From Chiloscyllium plagiosum (Eukaryota), in NCBI RefSeq assembly GCF_004010195.1, contig NC_057718.1:63202225-63266224 (forward strand): a stretch of 64,000 nt of DNA, written 5' to 3'. The translations under genes and the position numbers were made by a program. Each line of letters opens with the position of its first letter. The stretch's first letter is position 1. This document shows positions 1 to 64,000 of this stretch, in pieces. Under the pieces are notes generated by a model. It made no database searches and had not been told where the DNA came from. It worked only from the letters and a program-made list of their open reading frames with translations.

Positions 1-2310
1 AAACAAAAACTAGGAGTCAGTATTTATTAACAATAATGGATGTGTCCACTAGACTTTCAGAGGTTATTCCATTACACAATATCATAGCTAAAAGGATTTT
101 ACAGGAGTTAGTCAAGTGCTTCACTAAATAAGGACTACCCACAGGGATATAATCAGATCAATGGTTAAACTTTATATCAAAATTATTCAAGGAAGTTATG
201 GACAGCTCAGGAATAAAACAATTCAAATCTACTGCATACCATCCAGAATCGCAGGGAGCGCTAGGAGGTGGCATCAGACATTAAAGACCATGTTGAGGGC
301 TTATAGTCAAGACTATCCATTTGATTGGGATAAAGGAATTCCATTTGTACTTTTTTGCGATCAGAGATGCACCAAATGAATCGACTAAATTGAGTCCATT
401 TAAATTAGGTTTTGGGCATGAAGTGAGAGGACATTTAAAATTGATTAAGGAGAAATTGGTAAGTTATAATTCAGAGACCACATATTTGGATTGTGTGTCA
501 GATTTAAGGGCGTGATTAAATAGAGCTGGGGAGGGTGTTAGCTACACAGCATTTAAAAGTACCACAGTATACAATGAAATGGGAAGCAGACAGGAATTAA
601 AAACTCACAATTTTGCTATTAGAGATAAGATGTTAGTGTTACTTCCAGTGGTAGGTGAACCTTTAAAAGCAAGGTTTAGTGGACCTTACCAAGTCGAAAG
701 GAGATTGAGTGAAGTGAACTATTTGATAAGGACTCAAGACATAAAGAAACCTCACAGGGTATGTCATGTGAATATGCTTAAAAGGTATTTTTACAGGGAA
801 GGAAAGCCAAAGGAGACTGTGTTATTGGTTACAACACAGAGTGAAAACCAAGTTTATAAGATTCTGAATTGGACATTCCTCAAATTAAGTTGGGCAATGA
901 GGAGCTTGTCAAAAATTGGCATACATTTTTGAGTTACCTTCCAGAGGAGAATCAAAATAACCTGAAAGAGTTATTGCTCACACAGGGAGATATGTGGAAA
1001 TAAGCTGGGTAGTACTAACCTAATTATGCATGATGTAGATATAGGAAATGCTGTTCCAATTAAACAACTTTAGAAGGCATAACCTTCTAAAGTTGGCACA
1101 GGTTGAAAAGGAGTTTGAACGCATGCTCCAAGGCGACATAATTGAAGTGAGTTACAGTGACTAGAGCTCACCTATAGTAATGGTGCTAAAGCCACATGGT
1201 ACCTAGTGGTTATGTGTGGACTATTGCAAAGTCAATGCAGTTACAAAAACTGATGCATATCCAATTCTACATTTGGAAGACTGTGTTGAAAAGGTGGGAA
1301 AGCAACTTACATTTCTAAATTGGACTTGCTCAGAGGATATTGACAGGTACCTTTGTCCAAAAGAGCAAAGACTATTTCAGTTTTCGTAACACTAAACGGA
1401 ATATATCATTTTAAAGTCATGCCGTTTGGTATGAAAAATGCACCAGCCGCATTTCAAAGACTAACCGATAAGGTAATTTCCGGGTTACCCAATTGTGTCA
1501 CGTGTATAGATGACCAATGATTTTTAGTCTAATGTAGAAGGAACATTTGCAAGTTTATCAGAATTATTTGATGGACTTCAGGAGGCAGGCTTGGTGATAA
1601 ACCTGGTTAAAAGTAAATTTGCAATGCCCAAGTCACCTTCCTGGGCCATGTTATTGGACATGGAGAAACAACCCCATGGAATGCAAAAACAATGGTAATC
1701 GGGGAATTTCCCATGCCATCGACAAAAAGAGCAGTACTATGATTCCTGTGATTGACTGGATTTTATTGGATATTCATACTAAATTTTAGCATTGTGGCTG
1801 CTCCACTCACTGAATTACTAAAGAAAGGCAAGAAGTTTCAGTGGATAGCAGACTGTCAGAAGGCATTTGACAGTCTGAAAGCTGTTCTAATCACTGCACC
1901 AATGTTAGCCACACCTAATTACACAAAGCCATTCAAGATGGCTATCGATGCGAGTGATGTGGGTGTCGGTGCTGTGCTCTTACAGGAAGATAATGGGAAG
2001 ATAGGAAGACTTATTGGGTATTTCTCCAGGAAACTGAACATTCATCAGCAGAAATATTCAACAGTTGAGAAAGAAACTTTAAGCTTGGTGTTGGCGTTAC
2101 ATGATTTCAATGTCTATATTACCAATAATGTATCTGAGACAATCATATAAACTGATCATAACCTATTGAAATTTGTGGAGAGATTTAAGGGCACAAATTC
2201 CAGACTGTTTAGTTGGAGCTTGTTGTTACAGCCATTCAATTTGAAAATTGTATGTGTGGCAGGACAAGAAAACGTGATTGCCAATGCATTGTCGAGACTT
2301 GGATGAGAAA
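1..2310 (+). mobile_element. Decayed Ty3/gypsy (Gmr1-like) LTR retrotransposon pol, order integrase-RT-RNase H
   Basis: Integrase core (YLLTIMDVSTR..., YHPESQGAL.RWHQTLKTML) and GPY/F motif (ARFSGPYQV...HVNMLKRY) at 1-830. RT (CVDY.KVNAVT, KLDLLRGY, MPFGMKNAP, CIDD) at about 1100-1700. RNase H (IDASDVGVGAVLLQ, YFSRKL, YSTVEKE) at 1750-2300. Many stops and frameshifts. Confidence 0.92.
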
Positions 2311-2479: not shown

Positions 2480-2780
2480 AAAGGGGGGTGCAGGTGTGAC
2501 AATGCTGCTCCTTTAACAAGGTGTTATTTTCAGAGGGGTCAAAAAGTCATGGTTCTGAGATGTCTGTATTTATCTACTTGAAGAAGCTTTTAAGTCTTAA
2601 AAAAAAACTCCTACAATGTGACCAGTTCTCACAACTCAGTTTTCCTCTGGATTGGTTGGTTTTAGCACTCAGTGTATGTCCTGCCCTGGTTTGGCTTACT
2701 AAAGTGCAACACTGTTCTGGTTCTGCTAGTCAGTTCATCTTTAAAGTAGGCTGCTCCTCTTAGGGAGAAACTGCTTTGAG
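2480..2780 (+). mobile_element. Polypurine tract and start of the 3' LTR of the gypsy element
   Basis: AAAGGGGGGTGCAGG is followed by TGTGAC at 2495, just after pol. The start resembles the solo LTR at about 40605 (minus strand). The end point is uncertain. Confidence 0.6.
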
Positions 2781-3359
2781 TGATATTGCTAGAATTAAAT
2801 AAATGAAAACTAAATACCAGTGGAAAGGGAGAGAAATGGTTCCAGAATGTTTGATGCACCACTAGATCAATTAAAGTGGACAAGAGGAGAAATCTCAGGA
2901 GGTGAAGATTTATTGATCTAGCATCAATTGCTATTTGCCAGAGTGATCCAAACTTCTATTAGCCATTGAGTAAAGAGATATTTCTTAATTGTCCTCCTGA
3001 ACAGTCTGGTTCTTGTTTTTCCTAGATCACCGACTGCAAAAATACTTTCTCTCTTCTTCATCTGTTCCCCTTAATCTCTTGAAAACTTTAAACAAATAAC
3101 CTCTTAAACTCCTAATTTCCAGGGAATAAATTCTAGATGGCATTCCATCTTCTCATAACTTAAGAATCCAGGCAAACCATGTTACCTCTTAATTTGCATG
3201 ATGTAACAGGCAACCAGTGGGAACTGTGCTGCTGGCTGCACACTCAAACAGGCTGTAATAGTATACAAGGCTAGCGCCAGCTCTTAAAAGCAGTCCAAGC
3301 CTCTTAAAAGGGAGCTGCGCTAACAGAAAGAACGTACTGTAATTAGCTGCAACTGAAAA

Positions 3360-3580
3360 CATGGAAAATGGAGCTGATGGCAGAGAGAGGATACCCAAGT
3401 TCACAGATGTGGTGCTTTGTCATGGAGGTCAGCTGATGGAGATAAGCCATATTTTATGACAGAAGAGAGTTTATGTCAATAAGAGAAGGCTTTCTGAGGG
3501 GAAGAAAAGCTGGTACCACTGACAATGAAAGAATTCTAGGAACAAGGTCTTGCCACCATTCTGTAAAAAGTTCAATGTTC
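3360..3580 (+). mobile_element. Possible decayed PIF/Harbinger Myb/SANT-like ORF fragment
   Basis: Translates as ...RERIPKFTD... and later CKKFN, resembling the R.PRFSD...CRKKFND pattern of Harbinger DNA-binding ORFs. Heavily degraded. Confidence 0.35.
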
Positions 3581-3624
3581 TCATGTGGCATTGTGGGTTC
3601 ACCAAGTGGACTGCAGCATTCATG

Positions 3625-3722
3625 AAAGAAGCTCACCACTACCTTCTCAAGGGCAATTAGGGACAGACAATAAATGCTAGCCAGCTAACAAAACCCACAT
3701 CTCATCAATGAATACAAAAAAA
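3625..3722 (+). mobile_element. CR1-type LINE 3' tail
   Basis: GCTCACCACTACCTTCTCAAGGGCAATTAGGGACAGACAATAAATGCT matches the LINE end at 50040-50130. Confidence 0.7.
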
Positions 3723-3727
3723 TAAAG

Positions 3728-4661
3728 TTGTGACACCTAAGGCAAGAGGAGTGCTCTGTCATTCTAATCCCACAACTCCAAGAGTAAAATCATAAGGCAA
3801 AAATAATTTTCCAGTTACTATGATGACCAGTTATATACATCATTTATATCTGAAATTAAACAAAATGATCTGTCAATCAGGTATCATAATAATCACAATT
3901 ATGGGTCTTTTATCAAAACAAAATACATTCAATAGAAAGGTAATAATTGAGTAACATAAAGTCAGTAACATCTAAGTATAAATGTTTATCCCTATATGTA
4001 TCCACAAAACATGTGCAATTACAAACATATACACATGCATACATAAACACTTCCAAGGAAAAAGGAAAAACAAAATCTCTGTAAAGTCTGACTTTCGAAA
4101 AAAAAACTTTGGCCAATCAGTTATTCTTGAAGGGAAAAGGATAAAGTGCAGGATGTTCTGGAGTTTGTTGCTCTATTGCTCTGGCACACTTGTGCAAGGC
4201 ACTGATCAGCCATAGTTGTCTCTGAAGTCTTGCAGATAAGAAATATGTTCTTTCAGTCAAGTTTTCAAAGGGATAAATAACTTCCTGAACAGATGCAGAT
4301 TTTTTTCAGAAATGGCAAGCTGGGCAGCTTGTTCATAGTAAACTTTCCTCCAGCACAACTTGTTGTTGGTAGATAATAGCCTCGGCAGGGTATGCAAGAA
4401 AGCAAGTAGTTATCACCAGTCATATGATTTCTAGGAAGGCTTGTTCAAAAAGGAAATCACCAATATTCACACTGAACTTTCAATGATCTCTTCTAAAGAA
4501 ATCACTCCAAGTATGCTTATAAAACTTAAAATAAATTCCCTTTTCCACAATGTTCCAAAATTTAAGTCTTTCAAGCAATACTAGATATAATGCATCTTTG
4601 TAACAACGGTGATTGCATCTTCAGAGGACATTTTTTTCCACGATACCATAAACATCTCACA
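3728..4661 (-). mobile_element. Probable solo LTR (decayed)
   Basis: Minus strand begins TGTGAGA and ends ...GTGTCACAAC. Non-coding, with LTR-like composition. Confidence 0.35.
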
Positions 4662-4710
4662 CTGCTCAATCCATTACACTCCCATCAATTACTTATCAAT
4701 AATACATAGC

Positions 4711-4911
4711 AGGAGAAAGTGAGGACTGCAGATACTGGAGATTAGAGTCGAAAATGTGGTGCTGGAAAAGTACAGCAGGTCAGGCAACATCCGAGGAGCA
4801 AGAAAATCAACATTTTGAGATTCCTGATGAAGGGCTTTTGCTCGAAATGTCGATTTTCCTCCTCCTCGGATGCTGCCCGACCTGCTGTGCTTTTCCAGCA
4901 CCGCACTCTCG
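4711..4911. mobile_element. Palindromic Penelope-derived short element with hammerhead-like core
   Basis: Inverted arms (GCTGGAAAAG.ACAGCAGGTCAGGCA.CATCCGAGGAG and its reverse complement) flank CTGATGA-AGGGCTTTTGCTC-GAAATGTC at 4824-4851. Confidence 0.75.
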
Positions 4912-5494
4912 GCAATAATCAATAGCAATCAGGACTCAGGCCTAGTATTCAGATCGCCCATCTAATCTTCACACACCCTCTTATGATGACAGCCTCATAC
5001 CCAGCTCTTGCTGCCTTGACATACATCTAGTAATTAATATCTCAGTTTCTAACCTGCACATGCTATGGCCGCCCAGTTTTGTAGTCAAAACTTAGATGGA
5101 GATCCACACAGGTTCAGATTGCTACCACCATTATTGCAGATCTCAGTGTTCACTGGGACTTGCACATACTCAAGGTAGTCCAGCAAACTACCATCCAGAG
5201 GCTACTATGATGGGTGAGATGCACCATGTGGCAGTGGCATTATGGCACACAAACCTGCTGTCCTCTTTCAGAATGACAGCATTTGTGATCCTAGAGCTGC
5301 TGTTCCACTAGTGACCTTGCTGTTATCTTTCAGCTAGCCCAGAATGCTGGTGGTGTTGAGAAGGTGGATCCAGGCCCTGAAGGCTCAGAATTTGATTGAC
5401 CTGTTAGACTATCTGCAAACATCCCAAGTGAAAGTCAAGAGCCACTGGGTAGCATTTTGTAGCAATGCTTGGGGTGGGGAACATTAACTCTGGG

Positions 5495-36195: not shown

Positions 36196-37660
36196 CTCAG
36201 ACTGAGGCTAGCAGGCTGAAGCAGAGGAGCACTCACTGTCACCTTCCATTGCATGGAAATTGAAAGTGCACAATAGGGAAGAAAATGGTTGTGGCCACAT
36301 TTGGAGTGAGCAGAGCGATTCACAAACATAGAGTTGTTTTTCACCTGTGCCACCAAAAAGGGTGCAGGAAATGCCAGTGTTTCAGCTGGTATCCTCTAAC
36401 TAAAAAGTTGCCATGGGATCACATATCAGACATGAGAAATTCCAAAAAGGCAGGGTAGGTAAGTAATGAGGCAAGTTTGATAAATATGGTAAGGAATTTC
36501 ACTGGACATCACAGCAAAAAACCATCCAAAGAACACAATGCAACTCCAATATTTTTTCTGCCTTTTAGGACATGGGCTATCAGCTCTCGGGAATGTGTCA
36601 TTCTTTTGTCCCTGTCTTGTGTTTTGGTTCCCATAGCACACTTTGGAAAATACTCGCACTTTATTGAATTATTCCTTGCTTTCTCCAAGAGGATAGTAGA
36701 CTTATGGAATGTTACTTAGCACACGACTGCAGTGCAGCAGTGAATGTGGAACCATATCTCAATTAGTTCCTAATTCTTGATGAATAACATAATATTCCTT
36801 TTTCTTTCAATATGTACTGCTTCTATATCTATATTACGTTCCAATCATTAACTCAGTGCAGGAAATTGACAATCAACTTTGTTGACTAAATAAATCAAGC
36901 ACTGTTTATCAGAGTAAAAGATCATTTAGGTGGTAGCATGTTATGCCTCCATCTCATGAATTTGACATTCATCGTTGGACATACTGCACCGGTATTGTGT
37001 CTATTATTTTTTTGGTGTTGCATGCATCTATGATCAGGCAAGCATGTATCTTTAAGAGAGTTCAGTGATGATATTTGTGAGACAGCATGTCATGTGATAT
37101 TCTTGTATAAAAGGTAGTAGCATCACTCTGAATAACTGTTACTGTACTTTGTAATCTATAGTCAATCAGTCAGTAAAGTGATAGACATCAGAATATGTTG
37201 ATGCCCATAATGGAGTCGTAATGTCTATAGTTGCATTGTGAATAAATATTCGGATAGTTGTTCACAGTAAGAACCCTGTCTCAGTGTTCATGTTACAAAA
37301 TGTAATATATTAACAGATAACACATCATGATATGCTGTAAAAATGAAGAATATTTTATACGACTGCTCAGTAGCTAATGCTTCAAAAACTCTCTAGTTTA
37401 CTCTAGAAGACAATCATCATTGTGTCCATAAAGTCTGAACAGACACAACTCATCATTGAGGCAGTTACATCAAAGAGTCAGGCCAGACGTCTACAAGAGT
37501 GCAACAATCAGAATAGATGGGGTTATCATATTCTGCAGCTCAGTGACTTCCTATGTGATATGTTTAGCCAGATGCACCATGTAGAATATGACTTCCCTGA
37601 TTGGGGCCGTTAATCTGGTCCAGTCAGGTAGCCCTGGCTGACAGAGACAAACAGGAATGT

Positions 37661-37907
37661 TGCACTTTTGTATGTAACAGTACTGTGTAATGTACAACTG
37701 TCATTGCTGTTGTCTCTTTATATCTTTATGTGAAACTGGGATTTGAGGTTTGTCCTCATGTCCCTGTAAACTGTTTGAACGGTAGGGTTTGGGGCCTGGC
37801 TTTGCTGCTCCCCTCCCTTGTAAAATTGCTGTCTCTTGTATGCAGCTGTAAATGTAACTGTTTGTTTGTTGTAAACTGTTTTTGTAATTTGTTTAATAAA
37901 ATAATAC
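37661..37907 (+). mobile_element. Insert A: 3' end of unidentified A-tailed retroelement (family B)
   Basis: Homologous to 39500-39744. Ends TTTAATAAAATAAT. Bounded by AAACAGGAATGT on both sides. Confidence 0.7.
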
Positions 37908-37919
37908 AAACAGGAATGT

Positions 37920-38052
37920 TTCACACACCATGGGTGCTGGGGAAAAATAAGCACTACTGCAGTTAGGCGGTAGTTTGGGGGTTAAATTTAAAAAATAAAA
38001 AAAAATAAAAATAAACAGGAGTGTTTTAGTCCCTACCCTCCAAAAAAAAATT
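37920..38052 (+). mobile_element. Inserts B and C: very short A-tailed Tx1 3'-UTR pieces
   Basis: CACACACCATGGGTGC... and TTTAGTCCCTACCCTCC match the Tx1 3' UTR in D/E. Each is followed by an A-run and the target motif (38013-38024, 38053-38064). Confidence 0.7.
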
Positions 38053-38064
38053 AAACAGGATTGT

Positions 38065-39196
38065 CAGAGGTGGGCACTGCAGGGAGTGGAGTGCATTATT
38101 TCTCTCTCCAACTCTATTTTGATTTAGTCCCTACCCTCCCCTTCACTGTTTTGATCACACAGCACTGCCCTTTGATGTGAAGGGCAGTGCTTGTCACTGG
38201 CCACCTGGGTGTTTTCCTATCTTCCTGATGGTGGAAATTGAATAAAGATTTGTACACCTTGTGTCTCTCACTGTGTCTCACACCTGCACACACACACAAC
38301 ATGGGTGCAAAAAAAAAGAAAAAAAAAACACACAGGAATGTTCAGAGGAGGGAGGGCAGGTCTGAAGACCTCCCCGTGGCCATAAACAGGTCCAGGCAGC
38401 GGGCCGTGGAGGGAGCCGTTAGGGCCGACTGCCTGCCCCTCTTCCGCGGTTACGTTAGAGCCCTTGGAGAAGGAGCACGCGGTGTCCACCAACACCCTGG
38501 AGTTGTTCAGGGGGAGGTGGGTGCTGCAGGGAGTGGAGTGCATTATTTCTCCTGCCAGCTCTATTTTGATTTAGTCCCTGCCCTCCCCTTCACTGTTTGA
38601 TCACACAGCATTGCCCTTTGATGTGAAGGGCACTGCTTCTCACAGGCCACTCGAGTGTTTCCTTTCTACCTGGTGGTGGAAATTGAATAAAGATTTGCAC
38701 ACCTTGTGTCCCTCAGTGTGTCTCACACCTGCGCGCACACACACAACGTGTGTGCAAAAAAAATAAGAAAAAAAACACACAGGAATGTTCAGAGGAGGGA
38801 GGGCAGGTCTGAAGACCTCCCCGTGGGTCTGCTCCTGGGTTGGCCAAACTGGCCATAAACAGGTCCAGGCAGAGGGCCGTGGAAGATGCCATTAGGCCCA
38901 ATTGACTTCCCCTTTTCAGTGGTTACGCTCGAGCCTGGGTGTCTCTGGAGAAGGAGCACGCGGTGTCCAACAACACTCTTGAGCTGTTCAGGGAGAGGTG
39001 GGCGCTGCAGGGAGTGGACTGTATTATATCCCCGTCCAACTCTATTTTGATTTAATCCCTGTCCTCCCCTCCACTGTTTGATCATGCAGCTTTGCCCTCT
39101 AAGAAGGGCACTGCTTGTCACTGGTCACTTGGGTGTTTCCTTTCTTCCTGGTGGTGGAATATAAATAAACACTTACACACTTGTTTAAAAAAAAAT
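38065..39196 (+). mobile_element. Inserts D, E, F: 5'-truncated Tx1-clade LINE 3' ends in tandem
   Basis: ORF2 C-terminus LLLGLAKLAINRSRQRAVE...LEKEHAVSNNTLELFRERWALQGVDCII...SILI*, then AATAAA and poly-A. Separated by ACACAGGAATGT at 38330-38341 and 38777-38788. Confidence 0.85.
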
Positions 39197-39208
39197 AAAC
39201 AGGAGTGT

Positions 39209-39744
39209 CAAGCGAGCCAGGGAGGGTCAGTCAGTACACAGGGCAGCCAGAGACTGGAAGGCCAACAACCAGCTCGTAGGAAAGCGGCCCGGAGTAGTCC
39301 AGTTAGTATGCAGGATGACTAGGAGCTGAGTGGTCGATGATCAGCCTGGAGGAAAGCAGGCTGGGTGATGGTCGATCAGTACGTTGGGTGGCCGGAGACC
39401 AAAGGTCGACGACTGTCCTGCAGGAAGGCTAGCCAAGGACGGTCTGATCAGTATGTGGTGTGGACTGGCGTCATGTGTCTTTTTTTAAAGCTATATTGGA
39501 TAAATGTTCTATGCACTGTATCTCATTTAATTGCACTGTCTTGTCTGTTTGTTACTGTTATCTTTGTGATGACTGACAGTGGGACGTGAGGTTTGTCCTT
39601 ATTTCCCTGAAAACTGGTTGAATGGTGGAGTTTGGGATTTGGATTGCTGTCCTTTCCCCTGCATATGGTGGTTTTTTTTCTGTGAACTGCTGATTTCTGT
39701 TTATTGTTAATTGTATTTTGTACTGTTTAATAAAATTAAAAAAA
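39209..39744 (+). mobile_element. Insert G: longer copy of unidentified family B
   Basis: GC-rich 5' part with repeated GGTCGA(T/C)(G)ATCAG-like motifs, T-rich 3' part homologous to insert A, AATAAA plus poly-A. Bounded by AAACAGGAGTGT. Confidence 0.7.
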
Positions 39745-39996
39745 AAACAGGAGTGTCAGAGGTTCTGAGGAAGACTGACCAATGTCAAGTACTATGCACA
39801 TGTAAATTAAGGGTGATTTGATGACGAGGTACCAGCCTCTGTGGAGTTATTGCACCAGGAGTATTCTCAGTGCTCTTCAGTATTCTCCTCTGATGAATCA
39901 TTACTTTATTCCACCATCTTAATTTTCAGGAAGAGGTGCAAAACATGAGGAAAACATGTCAGGTTCCATTTTGTTTCCTACTTTTGGCATGAATGG

Positions 39997-59935: not shown

Positions 59936-60307
59936 CTTTCCTATGCTAGCTAAACTCAGAAACTGTTGATCATTTCTTGTCTACCTATTATACCTATACC
60001 TATTAGCTCCATCGAATTCAATCCAAATTGTCAACCTTATCTATGAAGGTTGCGTTTGCTATGAATGCAACTGCAGAGAGCACACGCTCAGGGGTAACAT
60101 TATTGGCACTGGCTTCCTATTCCAGCGCAGTGGCAGTAAAGTCGGATGGTACGGGCTTTGAATGATTGTGGCAAATTTCAGCACAGATTCTCTATTTCTG
60201 ATGTATTTTGGTTTTGTTTTACTTCTATTCTGTGATCTTTATGATTAGAGAAACAGGTTTTGTAAAAGCAAAATTAACAACAACAGAACAGTTTGGTTGG
60301 GTAGTGA

Positions 60308-60929
60308 TTGTAATGAGGTCAGCCAAGTGGACACATGGAATATGAGTTCCCTGATTGGGGCTGTTAACCTGGTCCTATCGGGGAGCCCTGGCTGACAACT
60401 GGACCAGAGTCAAGTAGTCTGCAGATGTAAATAAAGGGTGACATGGTGACAGATTAGATTTAGATTAGATTACATTACAGTGTGGAAACAGGCCCTTCGG
60501 CCCAACAAGTCCACACCGACCCGCCGAAGCGCAACCCACCCATACCCCTACATTTACCCCTTACCTAACACTACGGGCAATTTAGCATGGCCAATTCACC
60601 TGACCTGCACATCTTTGGACTGTGGGAGGAAACCGGAGCACCCGGAGGAAACCCACGCAGACACGGGGAGAACGTGCAAACTCCACACAGTCAGTCACCT
60701 GAGGCGGGAATTGAACCCGGGTCTCTGGCGTTGTGAGGCAGCAGTACTAGCCACTGTGTCACCGTGCAGCCCACATTTTTTATAAGTGTCACTGTATTCT
60801 GTCTACTCCCTCACACTCACTGTATACCTGTTATAGCACCTACCCCCGAACAAGGCTCAAGCTCTATTTATTTAGATTAGATTAGATTAGATTACATTAC
60901 TGGATACTGGCCTCTGTGGAGTTATTTCA
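60308..60929 (+). mobile_element. Solo LTR (same family as 37553-39854), interrupted by a SINE
   Basis: TGTAATGAGG...AAATAAAGGGTGAC (60308-60450) resumes at 60901 with TGGATACTGGCCTCTGTGGAGTTATTTCA. TG...CA termini. Confidence 0.85.
60451..60772 (-). mobile_element. Young full-length HE1-type V-SINE
   Basis: Near-exact reverse complement of 58037-58348. Confidence 0.95.
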
Positions 60930-62745: not shown

Positions 62746-62966
62746 CTGAATAACCAGGGTGGAGAAAGTGAGGACTGCAGATGCTGGAGATCAGAGCTGA
62801 AAATGTGTTGCTGGAAAAGCGCAGCAGGTCAGGTAGCATCCAAGGAACAGGAGAATCGAAGCTTATGCCCGAAACGTCGATTCTCCTGTTCCTTCTGTTC
62901 CTTGGATGCTGCCTGACCTGCTGCGCTTTTCCAGCAACACATTTTCAGCTCTGAATAACCAGGGTG
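62746..62966. mobile_element. Palindromic Penelope-derived insert with 16-bp TSD
   Basis: CTGAATAACCAGGGTG at 62746-62761 and 62951-62966; long, near-perfect inverted arms. Confidence 0.88.
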
Positions 62967-63496
62967 ACCTGCCTGCTGGATTGGAGTCAGAGCGGTTTCC
63001 ATTTTCCTCAGTCTGGGGTCAATGAGGTCACGGATGTGGAGCATGAACATGGCCTCTGGAATTCATTCCCCTAACTTGACCTTTGATCCCCCTGAGTGGG
63101 GTCTCCCTTTATCCCCCACCCCATGGGAAATAAAAATAAAGGATTTAGTTTCTTGTCATTGGATCTGCTGAAGGGTGTGTCTTAACTGGTAGTTTTCAGC
63201 AGCCAGAAGCCACTGGCTGGTTGGCCAGCAGGTCCTAGTGAGCTGGGATACCACTGTTCAGAATCGACAATAAGCGAGAAGCTCACCAGTCAGCTCTTAA
63301 CAAGCTGATTGGCATGTGATCCAATGAGCTTTCTGGGAATGGAGTCAGTGAGTTAGTTGACACAACACACTTGCCCTCAAATTTAAACAGAAAAGGGGAA
63401 AATCTCAGCCAAAGGATGCTCAGGTGTGTGGTGGAATCCCGTCTACGCTCACCCCTGCCTGGACAGAATTTCACATTGGCCCCAAGGTCCCATTAG

Positions 63497-64000
63497 GTGT
63501 GGGCGCTTGCACTCCCTTTTTGATTTTTTTAAAACCTTCTTCTCTGTTTCTGGTTGCACTTCAGTCCCATGTTCCTGATCTTCGGGCACCCGGTATGGAG
63601 GGGGGGGAGGGCAGGTCAGAGGACCTCCTCATGAGTCTGCTCCTGGTCCTGGCCAAATTGGACACAAGCAGATCCAGGCAATGGGTCGTGGAGGGGGTCA
63701 TTAGGGCAGATTGCCTTCCCCTCTTCCACTGTTACTTCAGAGCCCGGGTGTCTTTGGAGAAGGAGCATGCGGTCTCCATCAACATCCTTGAGCTGTTCAG
63801 GGAAAGGTGTGCACCACAGGGAGTGGAGTGCATTATTTCCCCCTCCAACTCTATTTTGATTTAATCCCTGCCCTGCCCTTCACTGTTTGATCACGCAGCA
63901 TTGCCCTCCAAGAAGGGCACTGCTGTCACTGGCCACTTGGGTGATTCCTTTCTTCCTGGTGGTGGAAATTGAATAAAGATTTGTACATTTTGTGTTTTTC
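63497..64000 (+). mobile_element. Tx1-clade LINE 3' end (same family as inserts D-F), running off the window
   Basis: CGRLHSLFDF...FWLHFSPMFLIFGHP...LLLVLAKL...LEKEHAVSINILELFRER...SNSILI*, then AATAAA. Confidence 0.88.

What the first reader, a model, noticed from the sequence alone, without database searches (positions are those of the whole stretch)
37649..39756. Seven retro-inserts stacked at one 12-bp site inside an LTR: candidate LTR-targeting, sequence-specific Tx1 system
Seen: the motif A(A/C)ACAGGA(A/G/T)TGT occurs eight times (37649, 37908, 38013, 38053, 38330, 38777, 39197, 39745). Between successive copies lie seven same-orientation inserts of about 28-540 bp, each ending in an A-rich tail right before the next motif. 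Removing them rejoins a solo LTR that aligns with the copy at 60308-60929. Five inserts are 3' ends of a Tx1-clade LINE. Established: target-primed reverse transcription leaves TSD-insert-polyA-TSD, and several Tx1 families are sequence-specific (Xenopus Tx1L/Tx2L into DNA transposons, Keno into U2 snRNA genes, others into microsatellites). Inference: the motif is a repeatedly regenerated target-site duplication, and this lineage uses an LTR as its target. I do not know of this target being described, but I cannot verify novelty.
Basis: partly seen in the sequence, partly recalled or inferred. Interest (0 to 1): 0.9.

Follow-up and report, generated by a model that had tools for sequence, protein, structure and literature searches.

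The report
Tx1 LINE stack inside an LTR
A Tx1-type jumping gene has landed again and again at one 12-base spot beside the TATA box of a short LTR, a real case of a habit already described for some Tx1 relatives in crocodilians.

Summary
The motif occurs 8 times at the stated places (0.07 expected). Each insert ends in an A-rich tail, and the two outer flanks are the arms of one ~235-bp LTR.

Inserts 2-6 are 3' ends of a LINE. Its ORF2 matches Xenopus Tx1 ORF2 best: 43% over the C-terminal 509 aa and 57% over an RT stretch. Inserts 1 and 7 are a second poly(A) family with the same target.

The habit is genome-wide. The motif follows the tail at 21 of 49 and 7 of 20 3' junctions, against 3 of 109 controls. 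Same-orientation LTR arms flank 14 of 29 and 16 of 19 loci. Of 30 LTR copies sampled, 5 carry Tx1 at this site and 19 are empty.

The target repeat is a true LTR: TG..CA ends, a polypurine tract and a decayed integrase upstream.

Two corrections. Inserts 4-6 look like two insertions plus one unequal crossover. LTR-targeting Tx1 families and TSD-sandwiched tandem insertions are already in print (Kojima 2015). So this is a new member of a known kind.

New here: full-length copies carry a 5' leader copied from the LTR just downstream of the target. The scan noted this system before on other DNA of this genome (e1-7789243).

The parts
37552..37648 (+). Left arm of the target LTR (U3-like part with ATTGG/CCAAT-type boxes). 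BLAST support starts at 37564; the first ~12 bases are diverged.
37649..37660 (+). Motif copy 1 (AAACAGGAATGT), preceded by LTR sequence: the original target site.
37661..37907 (+). Insert 1: 247-bp 3' end of poly(A) family B.
   Evidence: D8; 70% to 39535-39744
37908..37919 (+). Motif copy 2.
37920..38012 (+). Insert 2: the extreme 3' end of Tx1 family A (canonical tail region) plus an A-rich tail.
   Evidence: same 3' end in genome-wide copies
38013..38024 (+). Motif copy 3.
38025..38052 (+). Insert 3: 28 bp, a 17-nt internal piece of the Tx1-A 3' UTR plus an A run.
   Evidence: D9
38053..38064 (+). Motif copy 4. CAGAGG at 38065-38070 may belong to a longer 18-bp TSD or be microhomology.
38065..38329 (+). 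Insert 4: Tx1-A 3' UTR, 5'-truncated, poly(A) added after ...catgggtgc.
38330..38341 (+). Motif copy 5 (ACACAGGAATGT).
38342..38776 (+). Insert 5: Tx1-A, end of ORF2 plus 3' UTR. Probably a hybrid made by unequal crossover between insert 4 and the ancestor of insert 6.
38777..38788 (+). Motif copy 6 (ACACAGGAATGT), inside the 56-nt run identical to the junction at 38330.
38789..39196 (+). Insert 6: Tx1-A variant (78.5% to insert 5), polyadenylated early, about 17 nt after its AATAAA.
39197..39208 (+). Motif copy 7.
39209..39744 (+). Insert 7: 536-bp 3' end of family B, with internal ~70-140-bp repeats.
39745..39756 (+). Motif copy 8, followed by LTR sequence.
39757..39854 (+). Right arm of the target LTR (AATAAA-bearing part, ends ...TTGCA). 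Lacks ~22 bp of the family sequence after CAGAGG.
60301..60929 (+). Second copy of the same LTR family. LTR positions ~100-152 (target included) are deleted, and a SINE-like insert lies at about 60452-60895.
63395..64000 (+). Third Tx1-A copy (ORF2 end plus 3' UTR) running off the window. Its 5' junction follows ...AAATTTAAACAG in a different ATTGG/CCAAT-bearing repeat.

Best explanation
A Tx1-clade LINE (tail family A) and a second poly(A) retroposon with the same target (family B) integrate by target-primed reverse transcription at one site of a ~235-bp LTR family. They always lie in the LTR's own orientation.

The site is ...AGATATAAA/CAGGAGTGT/CAGAGG..., at LTR position ~103-118. It lies directly after the LTR's TATA-like box and before an initiator-like TTCACTC. 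These promoter labels are my reading from recalled consensus sequences.

Inferred steps: the element's endonuclease nicks the bottom strand opposite the A run, and the poly(A) RNA is copied from there. The top strand is cut mostly 9-12 nt further on, after TGT. So (AAA)CAGGAGTGT is duplicated on both sides of the insert.

Because the duplicated copy is again a target, later insertions stack head to tail with the motif between them. The stacks are further reshaped by unequal crossover between neighbouring homologous inserts; in the window this produced insert 5.

Shown: the anatomy, the genome-wide site preference, the Tx1 kinship and the LTR nature of the target. Inferred: the nick positions, and that the specificity lies in the protein.
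For: Motif array: 8 copies against 0.07 expected, with tails and arms as described.

Site preference from the element side:
- An A run followed by CAGGAGTGT (up to 2 mismatches) occurs after 21 of 49 family-A and 7 of 20 family-B 3' junctions.
- The same test is positive for 3 of 109 other A-rich runs in the window and 217 of 6900 shuffles.
- The stricter 14-mer gives 14 of 49 and 8 of 20, against 112 and 159 of 5000 random windows.
- Read by eye, roughly 35 of 49 and 15 of 20 junctions show the motif, a variant of it, or LTR sequence directly after the tail.
- Same-orientation LTR arms flank 14 of 29 family-A loci and 16 of 19 family-B loci, with arm hits starting at LTR position ~95-112. Only 1 of the 48 loci has an opposite-orientation LTR alone.

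Site preference from the LTR side:
- Of 30 LTR copies in 29 loci, 19 are empty, 5 carry Tx1-A at exactly this site with (A)AACAGGAGTGT on both sides, 2 carry another element, and 4 show the right arm only.
- Exact 21-mers genome-wide: 670 of the empty-site type against 157 of the A8-joined type. Reversed-pattern controls give 0.

Two families with unrelated 3' UTRs share the target. This points to the protein, not RNA-target pairing, as the source of specificity.

Tx1 kinship:
- The C-terminal 509 aa of ORF2 best hits Xenopus Tx1 ORF2 (E 8e-116, 43% identity, 96% coverage).
- L024 matches Tx1 ORF2 aa 279-667 at 57% and scores RVT_1 at E 1e-23.

LTR nature:
- 13 natural copies of 218-237 bp have TG..CA ends.
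- A polypurine run lies directly upstream in 5 of 17 aligned copies.
- A decayed integrase lies upstream of it: rve E 2.8e-6 and Integrase_H2C2 E 7e-4, plus integrase-core clusters in the Atlas.

Precedent: Kojima 2015.
Against: - The endonuclease and most of the RT of the one long copy fetched read N (withheld). The APE domain was therefore not seen and no RT tree was made.
- Tx1 placement rests on best hits, not on a phylogeny.
- The zf-RVT, rve and Integrase_H2C2 hits are all below Pfam's curated cut-offs.
- By the objective motif test, 28 of 49 family-A junctions and 13 of 20 family-B junctions do not show the motif. Some of these lie in variant LTR families or next to the following insert; a few have unrelated TSDs (L069, L072, L020, L024), so the specificity is not absolute.
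- The loci are the best-scoring matches of capped searches, not a random sample. L037, L039 and L040 are duplicates of one place.
- No read or contig spans the window's array.
- No paired LTRs, PBS or LTR-flanking TSD were shown for the target family.
Confidence: 0.85

Rival explanations
1. The array is mainly a tandem duplication. One or two insertions with their TSD were amplified by unequal crossover or replication slippage, not by repeated integration.
For: Units 38067-38513 and 38514-38994 are 87.2% alike. They share a 56-nt identical junction that includes derived letters (ACAC, AAT, an extra T, CCCCGTGG), where 0.024 such runs are expected. Repeated identical junctions also occur within L003, L008 and L025.
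Against: Inserts 1, 2, 3, 4 and 7 differ in family, in 5' truncation point and in tail. Single clean insertions with TSDs exist at the same site elsewhere: L043, L056, L057. So this explains part of the array (insert 5) but not the whole.
Confidence: 0.08
2. The motif belongs to the retroposon itself, as a 3'-terminal sequence after an internal A run. The 'target' would then be carried along, not duplicated.
For: The motif always follows the tail. Full-length copies do carry LTR-like sequence at their 5' end.
Against: The motif sits in uninterrupted LTR copies: 19 of 30 sampled and 670 exact empty-site 21-mers. The leftmost copy in the window follows LTR sequence, not a tail. LTR sequence continues beyond the motif at 13 of 29 and 16 of 19 loci.
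Confidence: 0.02
3. There is no sequence-specific enzyme. An ordinary L1-like TTTT/A preference, plus an accessible AT-rich TATA region in an abundant repeat, gives a hot spot.
For: The nick lies at an A/T run, which fits the generic APE preference (recalled). Some copies sit at unrelated sites.
Against: The 9-14 nt downstream of the A run recur at 28 of 69 junctions against 3 of 109 controls. All five occupied LTRs in the sample are hit at the same nucleotide positions and none elsewhere in the 235 bp. Orientation is constant.
Confidence: 0.04
4. The array is an assembly artefact: repeats collapsed or mis-joined.
For: No contig of four short-read runs spans the array. Many false joints appear in repeats.
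Against: A 100-nt contig from an independent sample covers 38717-38816 without differences. Unique parts of insert 7 and both flanks are present in two samples of the same organism label. They are also present at 92-99% in a second organism label, while the best other family-B copies in the window's own genome are 85% or less alike to insert 7. Similar stacks occur at many loci.
Confidence: 0.03

Closest known systems
Tx1-8_Crp and Tx1-4_AMi, crocodilian Tx1 families (Kojima 2015, PMC4494074; passages read)
   Same: [quoted passage not shown]
   Different: The host is a different vertebrate. The paper's main text gives no site within the LTR, and its supplements could not be read here. Here the site is mapped to the bases right after a TATA-like box, and two tail families share it.
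SINEU-3 / Tx1-Mar in Mariner-N4_AMi (same paper)
   Same: Site preference for another transposon, a ~16-bp TSD, and tandem copies sandwiching a TSD that were read as sequential insertions. Some Tx1-Mar families have acquired 5' heads (U1/U2-derived).
   Different: The target there is a DNA transposon. Here the acquired 5' leader comes from the target LTR itself.
Tx1L in Tx1D, Xenopus laevis (as summarised in Kojima 2015; endonuclease work recalled, not read)
   Same: It is the type element of the clade and the nearest named protein relative (43-57% identity). It inserts at one site of another mobile element.
   Different: Its target is a piggyBac-type non-autonomous DNA transposon, not an LTR.
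R1/R2 and other rDNA-specific LINEs (as cited in Kojima 2015)
   Same: The closest model for how it works: a regenerated or conserved target, and possible reliance on target transcription and target-derived 5' sequence.
   Different: These belong to different clades (R2 uses a restriction-like endonuclease). Their target is a host gene, not a mobile element.

Membership tests
Tx1 clade of non-LTR retrotransposons | The RT domain groups with Tx1 in an RT phylogeny (RTclass1-type test). | tested here: inconclusive
   No tree was made. By best hit, L024:17-1186 is 57% identical to Xenopus Tx1 ORF2 aa 279-667 and scores RVT_1 at E 1e-23. The C-terminal 509 aa best hits the same protein at 43% identity and E 8e-116.
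Tx1 clade of non-LTR retrotransposons | An N-terminal APE-type endonuclease in ORF2. | not testable with these tools
   Only about the first 16 residues of ORF2 are readable in L064 before a withheld N stretch. The homologues found carry PF03372 together with PF00078.
Tx1 clade of non-LTR retrotransposons | A C-terminal Cys/His zinc-knuckle region after the RT. | tested here: met
   A C-x2-C...H...C stretch is visible in the translations. It aligns with the Tx1 C-terminus. The zf-RVT score of 23.4-23.9 bits is below the 27.5 cut-off.
Target-specific (site-specific) LINE | Independent copies lie at the same nucleotide site of the same target, in one orientation, with TSDs, and empty sites exist. 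| tested here: met
   By Kojima's 20%-of-flanks criterion, both families qualify: 14 of 29 and 16 of 19 loci.
LTR of an LTR retrotransposon or endogenous retrovirus (the target) | Short repeat with TG...CA termini, and promoter and poly(A) signals. | tested here: met
   13 natural copies of 218-237 bp start with TGT and end with TCA/GCA. The TATA-like, CCAAT-like and AATAAA strings were read by eye.
LTR of an LTR retrotransposon or endogenous retrovirus (the target) | A polypurine tract and pol (integrase) directly upstream of 3' copies. | tested here: met
   A purine run abuts the LTR start in 5 of 17 aligned copies (L034, L041, L045, L048, L050). In L050, rve scores E 2.8e-6 and Integrase_H2C2 E 7e-4, both below the curated cut-offs. 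The Atlas returns integrase-core clusters.
LTR of an LTR retrotransposon or endogenous retrovirus (the target) | Two LTRs flanking one internal region, a PBS after the 5' LTR, and a 4-6-bp TSD. | not tested
No shared PBS-like flank was seen. The superfamily (Gypsy-like or retrovirus-like) is left open.

The most novel reading that the evidence does not exclude
The LINE and its target share one promoter architecture. The element integrates between the LTR's TATA-like box and its initiator-like TTCACTC. Full-length copies carry, as their 5' leader, a copy of the LTR segment that normally follows the target (...GAGAGCTGGATCAGTGT, a (GT)n run, then CAAGGACTCTCC). An insertion could thus rebuild a TATA-initiator unit that drives the LINE from the LTR's U3. 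The target homology could also guide 5' joining, as target-derived 5' sequence is thought to do for rDNA-specific LINEs.

Shown: the leader homology. It is present in 4 of 4 fetched 5' regions and in 11 pattern hits against 0 in the control. Six of the 11 run without a break from the motif through LTR ~118-165 into the leader.

Against: none of the 11 has the exact LTR TATA context upstream, and at least 3 follow a poly(A) tail. Among sites in general, the TATA context outnumbers the poly(A) context 670 to 157. Five of the 11 carry a Tx1 3'-UTR piece upstream of the leader, so some transcripts start further upstream. No RNA data were available.
Probability: 0.15. Interest if true: 0.65.

Novelty: new member of a known kind. 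Interest (0 to 1): 0.4.

Why it matters
This is a clean, quantifiable case of one mobile element using another as its landing pad. By the two proxies used here, roughly one LTR copy in five is hit. Each hit separates the LTR's TATA-like box from its downstream region, so the LINE may have helped to silence that LTR family.

It extends LTR-targeting by Tx1 elements, reported for crocodilians, to another vertebrate genome, and it gives the site to the nucleotide. That makes the endonuclease's specificity directly testable with a short oligo.

The LTR-derived 5' leader raises the question of how such LINEs are transcribed. For annotation, these stacks should be recognised as nested TPRT events plus unequal crossover, not as a satellite or a new composite repeat.

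Tried and rejected
I worked with searches and stretches instead.
- Full-length ORF2: the long 'open frames' are N runs. In L064, bases 2567-5026 are withheld. I did not pursue the EN/RT core, so there is no EN analysis and no RT tree.
- L061-L063 turned out to be 5'-truncated and decayed.
- ORF1-like frame L064:1601-2416: no Pfam family.
One locus (L067) places a Tx1-like ORF2 fragment just upstream of the B repeats, but its 5' boundary shows no motif. Whether B is a LINE 3' end or a non-autonomous partner stays open.
- Promoter-rebuilding idea: the exact-context patterns spoke against its simple form.
- Sequencing runs: no RNA holder was listed. The four runs laid are short contigs that break in the repeats, so none spans the array.
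- Supplements of Kojima 2015, which should name the crocodilian LTR targets, could not be read.
- Literature searches found no paper on a Tx1 target at an LTR TATA box or on cartilaginous-fish Tx1 targets. The library lacks most subscription journals and Repbase Reports, so this is weak evidence of absence.
- Considered and rejected: the motif as part of the element, a generic AT-rich hot spot, and mis-assembly (see the rival explanations).
- Not used: structure prediction, complex prediction and RNA-family tools. No question here needed them.
Full report
OBSERVATION

The motif AMACAGGADTGT occurs 8 times in the 64-kb window, all on the + strand and at the coordinates given. Shuffles give a mean of 0.07, and 0 of 100 reach 8.

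The sequence shows seven inserts between the copies, of 247, 93, 28, 265, 435, 408 and 536 bp. Each ends in an A-rich tail that abuts the next motif copy.

The outer flanks are the two arms of one short repeat. 37564-37660 matches positions ~21-117 of 13 natural copies from elsewhere in the genome, and 39756-39854 matches positions ~134/142-237. This copy lacks about 22 bp of the family sequence right after CAGAGG.

The copy at 60301-60929 belongs to the same family. It lacks positions ~100-152, target included, and holds a SINE-like insert of about 440 bp.

WHAT THE INSERTS ARE

Inserts 2-6 match one family, which I call Tx1-A. It has at least 3162 first-look candidates in the 3.56-Gb assembly.

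Upstream of the shared 3' UTR, genomic copies continue into an ORF that ends in a Cys/His knuckle. The readable C-terminal 509 aa of one long copy (L064) finds 5 proteins. The best is the Xenopus laevis Tx1 ORF2 ('Transposon TX1 uncharacterized 149 kDa protein'), at E 8e-116, 43% identity and 96% of the query. The hits have PF03372 plus PF00078 architecture.

A decayed RT stretch that had come with locus L024 is 57% identical to Tx1 ORF2 aa 279-667. It scores RVT_1 at E 1e-23 when read with X at its two stops.

The EN and most of the RT of L064 read N (withheld). I left that alone, so there is no EN analysis and no RT tree. Clade placement rests on best hits.

The canonical 3' end of Tx1-A lies about 45 nt beyond the point where inserts 4 and 5 were polyadenylated. 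Insert 2 is that extreme 3' end. Insert 6 was polyadenylated early, about 17 nt after an AATAAA.

Inserts 1 and 7 belong to a second poly(A) family, B, with at least 1428 candidates. It has an unrelated 3' UTR preceded by ~70-140-bp tandem repeats. In one of 19 loci a Tx1-like ORF2 fragment lies just upstream of those repeats. What mobilises B is otherwise open.

IS THE SITE PREFERENCE GENOME-WIDE?

From the element side, I took every 3' junction in the loci returned: 49 for family A in 29 loci and 20 for family B in 19 loci.
- An A run followed by CAGGAGTGT (up to 2 mismatches) is present after 21 of 49 and 7 of 20 junctions.
- The same test is positive for 3 of 109 other A-rich runs in the window and 217 of 6900 shuffles.
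- A stricter 14-mer gives 14 of 49 and 8 of 20, against 112 and 159 of 5000 random windows of the same loci.
- By eye, roughly 35 of 49 and 15 of 20 junctions show the motif, a variant of it (for example CAGGAGATTCAGAA in a related LTR family), or LTR sequence directly after the tail. Several of the remaining junctions abut the next insert of a stack. A few have unrelated TSDs (L069, L072, L020, L024).
- LTR arms of the one family used as a library flank 14 of 29 family-A loci and 16 of 19 family-B loci, in the same orientation as the element. Right-arm hits begin at LTR position ~95-112. One locus of the 48 has only an opposite-orientation LTR.

From the LTR side, I looked at the 30 LTR copies in the 29 loci returned for the right arm.
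- 19 are empty.
- 5 carry Tx1-A at exactly this site, with (A)AACAGGAGTGT on both sides (L035, L043, L056, L057, L060).
- 2 carry a different palindromic element.
- 4 show only the right arm.
- L037, L039 and L040 are duplicates of one place.

Genome-wide, the exact empty-site 21-mer occurs 670 times and the A8-joined form 157 times, with 0 for the reversed controls. Both proxies put occupancy near one in five.

These loci are the best-scoring matches of capped searches, not a random sample.

THE TARGET IS AN LTR

The repeat is 218-237 bp long, starts with TGT and ends with TCA.

In 5 of 17 aligned copies a purine run abuts its start, and the upstream flanks are homologous to each other. In L050 those flanks encode a decayed integrase: rve at E 2.8e-6 and Integrase_H2C2 at E 7e-4, both under Pfam's cut-offs. 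The Atlas returns integrase-core clusters.

Paired LTRs, a PBS and the superfamily were not established.

The target (LTR ~103-118) directly follows an ATATAAA string, which is preceded by ATTGG/CCAAT strings. A TTCACTC string follows 30 nt after the TATA-like box. Calling these a TATA box, CCAAT box and initiator is my reading from recalled consensus sequences.

MECHANISM

The anatomy is that of target-primed reverse transcription. A bottom-strand nick opposite the A run primes on the poly(A). A top-strand cut falls mostly after TGT, giving a TSD of 9-12 nt. The A's cannot be assigned to tail or target.

Some 5' junctions use microhomology a few bases on, as in insert 4 and L025. Some lose target bases, as in L035.

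Two families with unrelated 3' UTRs share the site, which points to the protein as the source of specificity. That is an inference.

The duplicated motif is again a target, so stacks arise. L003, L008, L022, L025, L035 and L060 show them too.

NOT ALL SEVEN INSERTS ARE INDEPENDENT

Units 38067-38513 and 38514-38994 align at 87.2% (414 of 475 columns). They share a 56-nt identical run across the tail end, ACACAGGAATGT, an extra T and the first 37 nt of the next insert. That run includes letters that differ from the family norm. Only 0.024 such runs are expected.

The simplest history is two insertions (insert 4 and the ancestor of insert 6) followed by one unequal crossover that created insert 5. 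Repeated identical junctions within L003, L008 and L025 suggest the same process elsewhere.

AN UNEXPECTED EXTRA

All 4 fetched 5' regions of full-length Tx1-A carry a leader that copies the LTR segment lying downstream of the target. It is marked by a (GT)n run that ordinary LTR copies lack.

A pattern joining the motif to this leader within 100 nt has 11 exact matches and 0 in the reversed control.
- In 6 of them, LTR-like sequence runs unbroken from the motif into the leader.
- In 5 of them, a 5'-truncated piece of Tx1 3' UTR ending at ...cctatctt precedes the leader.

This suggested that the insertion rebuilds a TATA-initiator unit. However, 0 of the 11 have the exact LTR TATA context upstream, and at least 3 follow a poly(A) tail. 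The context of the other 8 was not determined. I keep this as the novel reading, at low probability.

ASSEMBLY AND AGE

No contig of four short-read runs spans the array.

A 100-nt contig of an independent sample covers 38717-38816 without differences. Unique parts of insert 7 and both flanks are present in two samples of the same organism label. They are also present at about 92-99% identity in a second organism label. The best other family-B copies in this genome are 85% or less alike to insert 7. So at least that insert is probably shared by descent and old. This is a hint, not proof.

Best genomic matches are 90% (insert 5), 85% (insert 7) and 85-89% (LTR arm). The families are not young.

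WHAT IS KNOWN

Kojima 2015 (PMC4494074; passages read) makes four relevant points:
- Many Tx1 families are target-specific.
- Tandem SINEU-3 copies sandwiching a TSD arise by sequential insertion.
- Some Tx1-Mar families have acquired U1/U2 heads.

The paper also discusses transcription from flanking target sequence, with R2 as the model. Its supplements could not be read.

Four library searches found nothing on a Tx1 target at an LTR TATA box or in cartilaginous fishes. The library lacks Repbase Reports and most subscription journals.

Both are addressed here.

VERDICT

The novelty is modest: a new member of a known kind, with a precisely mapped site and an LTR-derived leader as the new details.

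Noticed in passing
window 63395-64000: A third Tx1-A copy (ORF2 end plus 3' UTR) runs off the window's end. Its 5' junction follows ...AAATTTAAACAG in a different repeat that also has ATTGG and CCAAT strings upstream. It may be a related LTR family hit at the homologous place.
   Followed up: partly
window 60301-60929: The second LTR copy has lost LTR positions ~100-152, exactly the region holding the target. It carries a ~440-bp SINE-like insert flanked by GATTAGATTA-type repeats.
   Followed up: partly
L085-L088 (5' regions of full-length Tx1-A) and the 11 places listed: Full-length Tx1-A copies begin with an LTR-derived leader (LTR ~145-180 with a (GT)n insertion), followed by GA-rich and ~230-bp monomer repeats. 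Five of the 11 pattern hits have a Tx1 3'-UTR piece ending at ...cctatctt fused to the leader, as if a read-through or template-switched dimer had been copied.
   Followed up: partly
L051 (about 1594-1848, minus strand), L052, L071, L074, L082; window about 62900-62955: A palindromic, MITE-like element recurs. In L051 it sits in the same zone of the LTR as the Tx1 target, with a ~14-bp duplication and no poly(A).
   Followed up: no
L057 (about 1178-1501): A Tx1-A insert at the LTR target carries about 100 nt of a tRNA-like SINE sequence at its 5' end. This fits template switching during reverse transcription.
   Followed up: no
L066-L084, upstream of the family-B tail: The family-B 3' region is preceded by long arrays of ~70-140-bp tandem repeats. 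In L067 a Tx1-like ORF2 fragment (aa ~79-235 of the 509-aa query) lies directly upstream of them.
   Followed up: partly
L037, L039, L040: Three loci on different contigs (C26, C6, C3) have identical LTR copies and identical flanks. They are segmental duplicates or redundant assembly pieces.
   Followed up: no
L064:2567-5026 and shorter N runs in 14 other loci: N stretches cover the EN/RT core of the long Tx1 copy. The ~1300-aa 'open frames' are artefacts of such runs.
   Followed up: no
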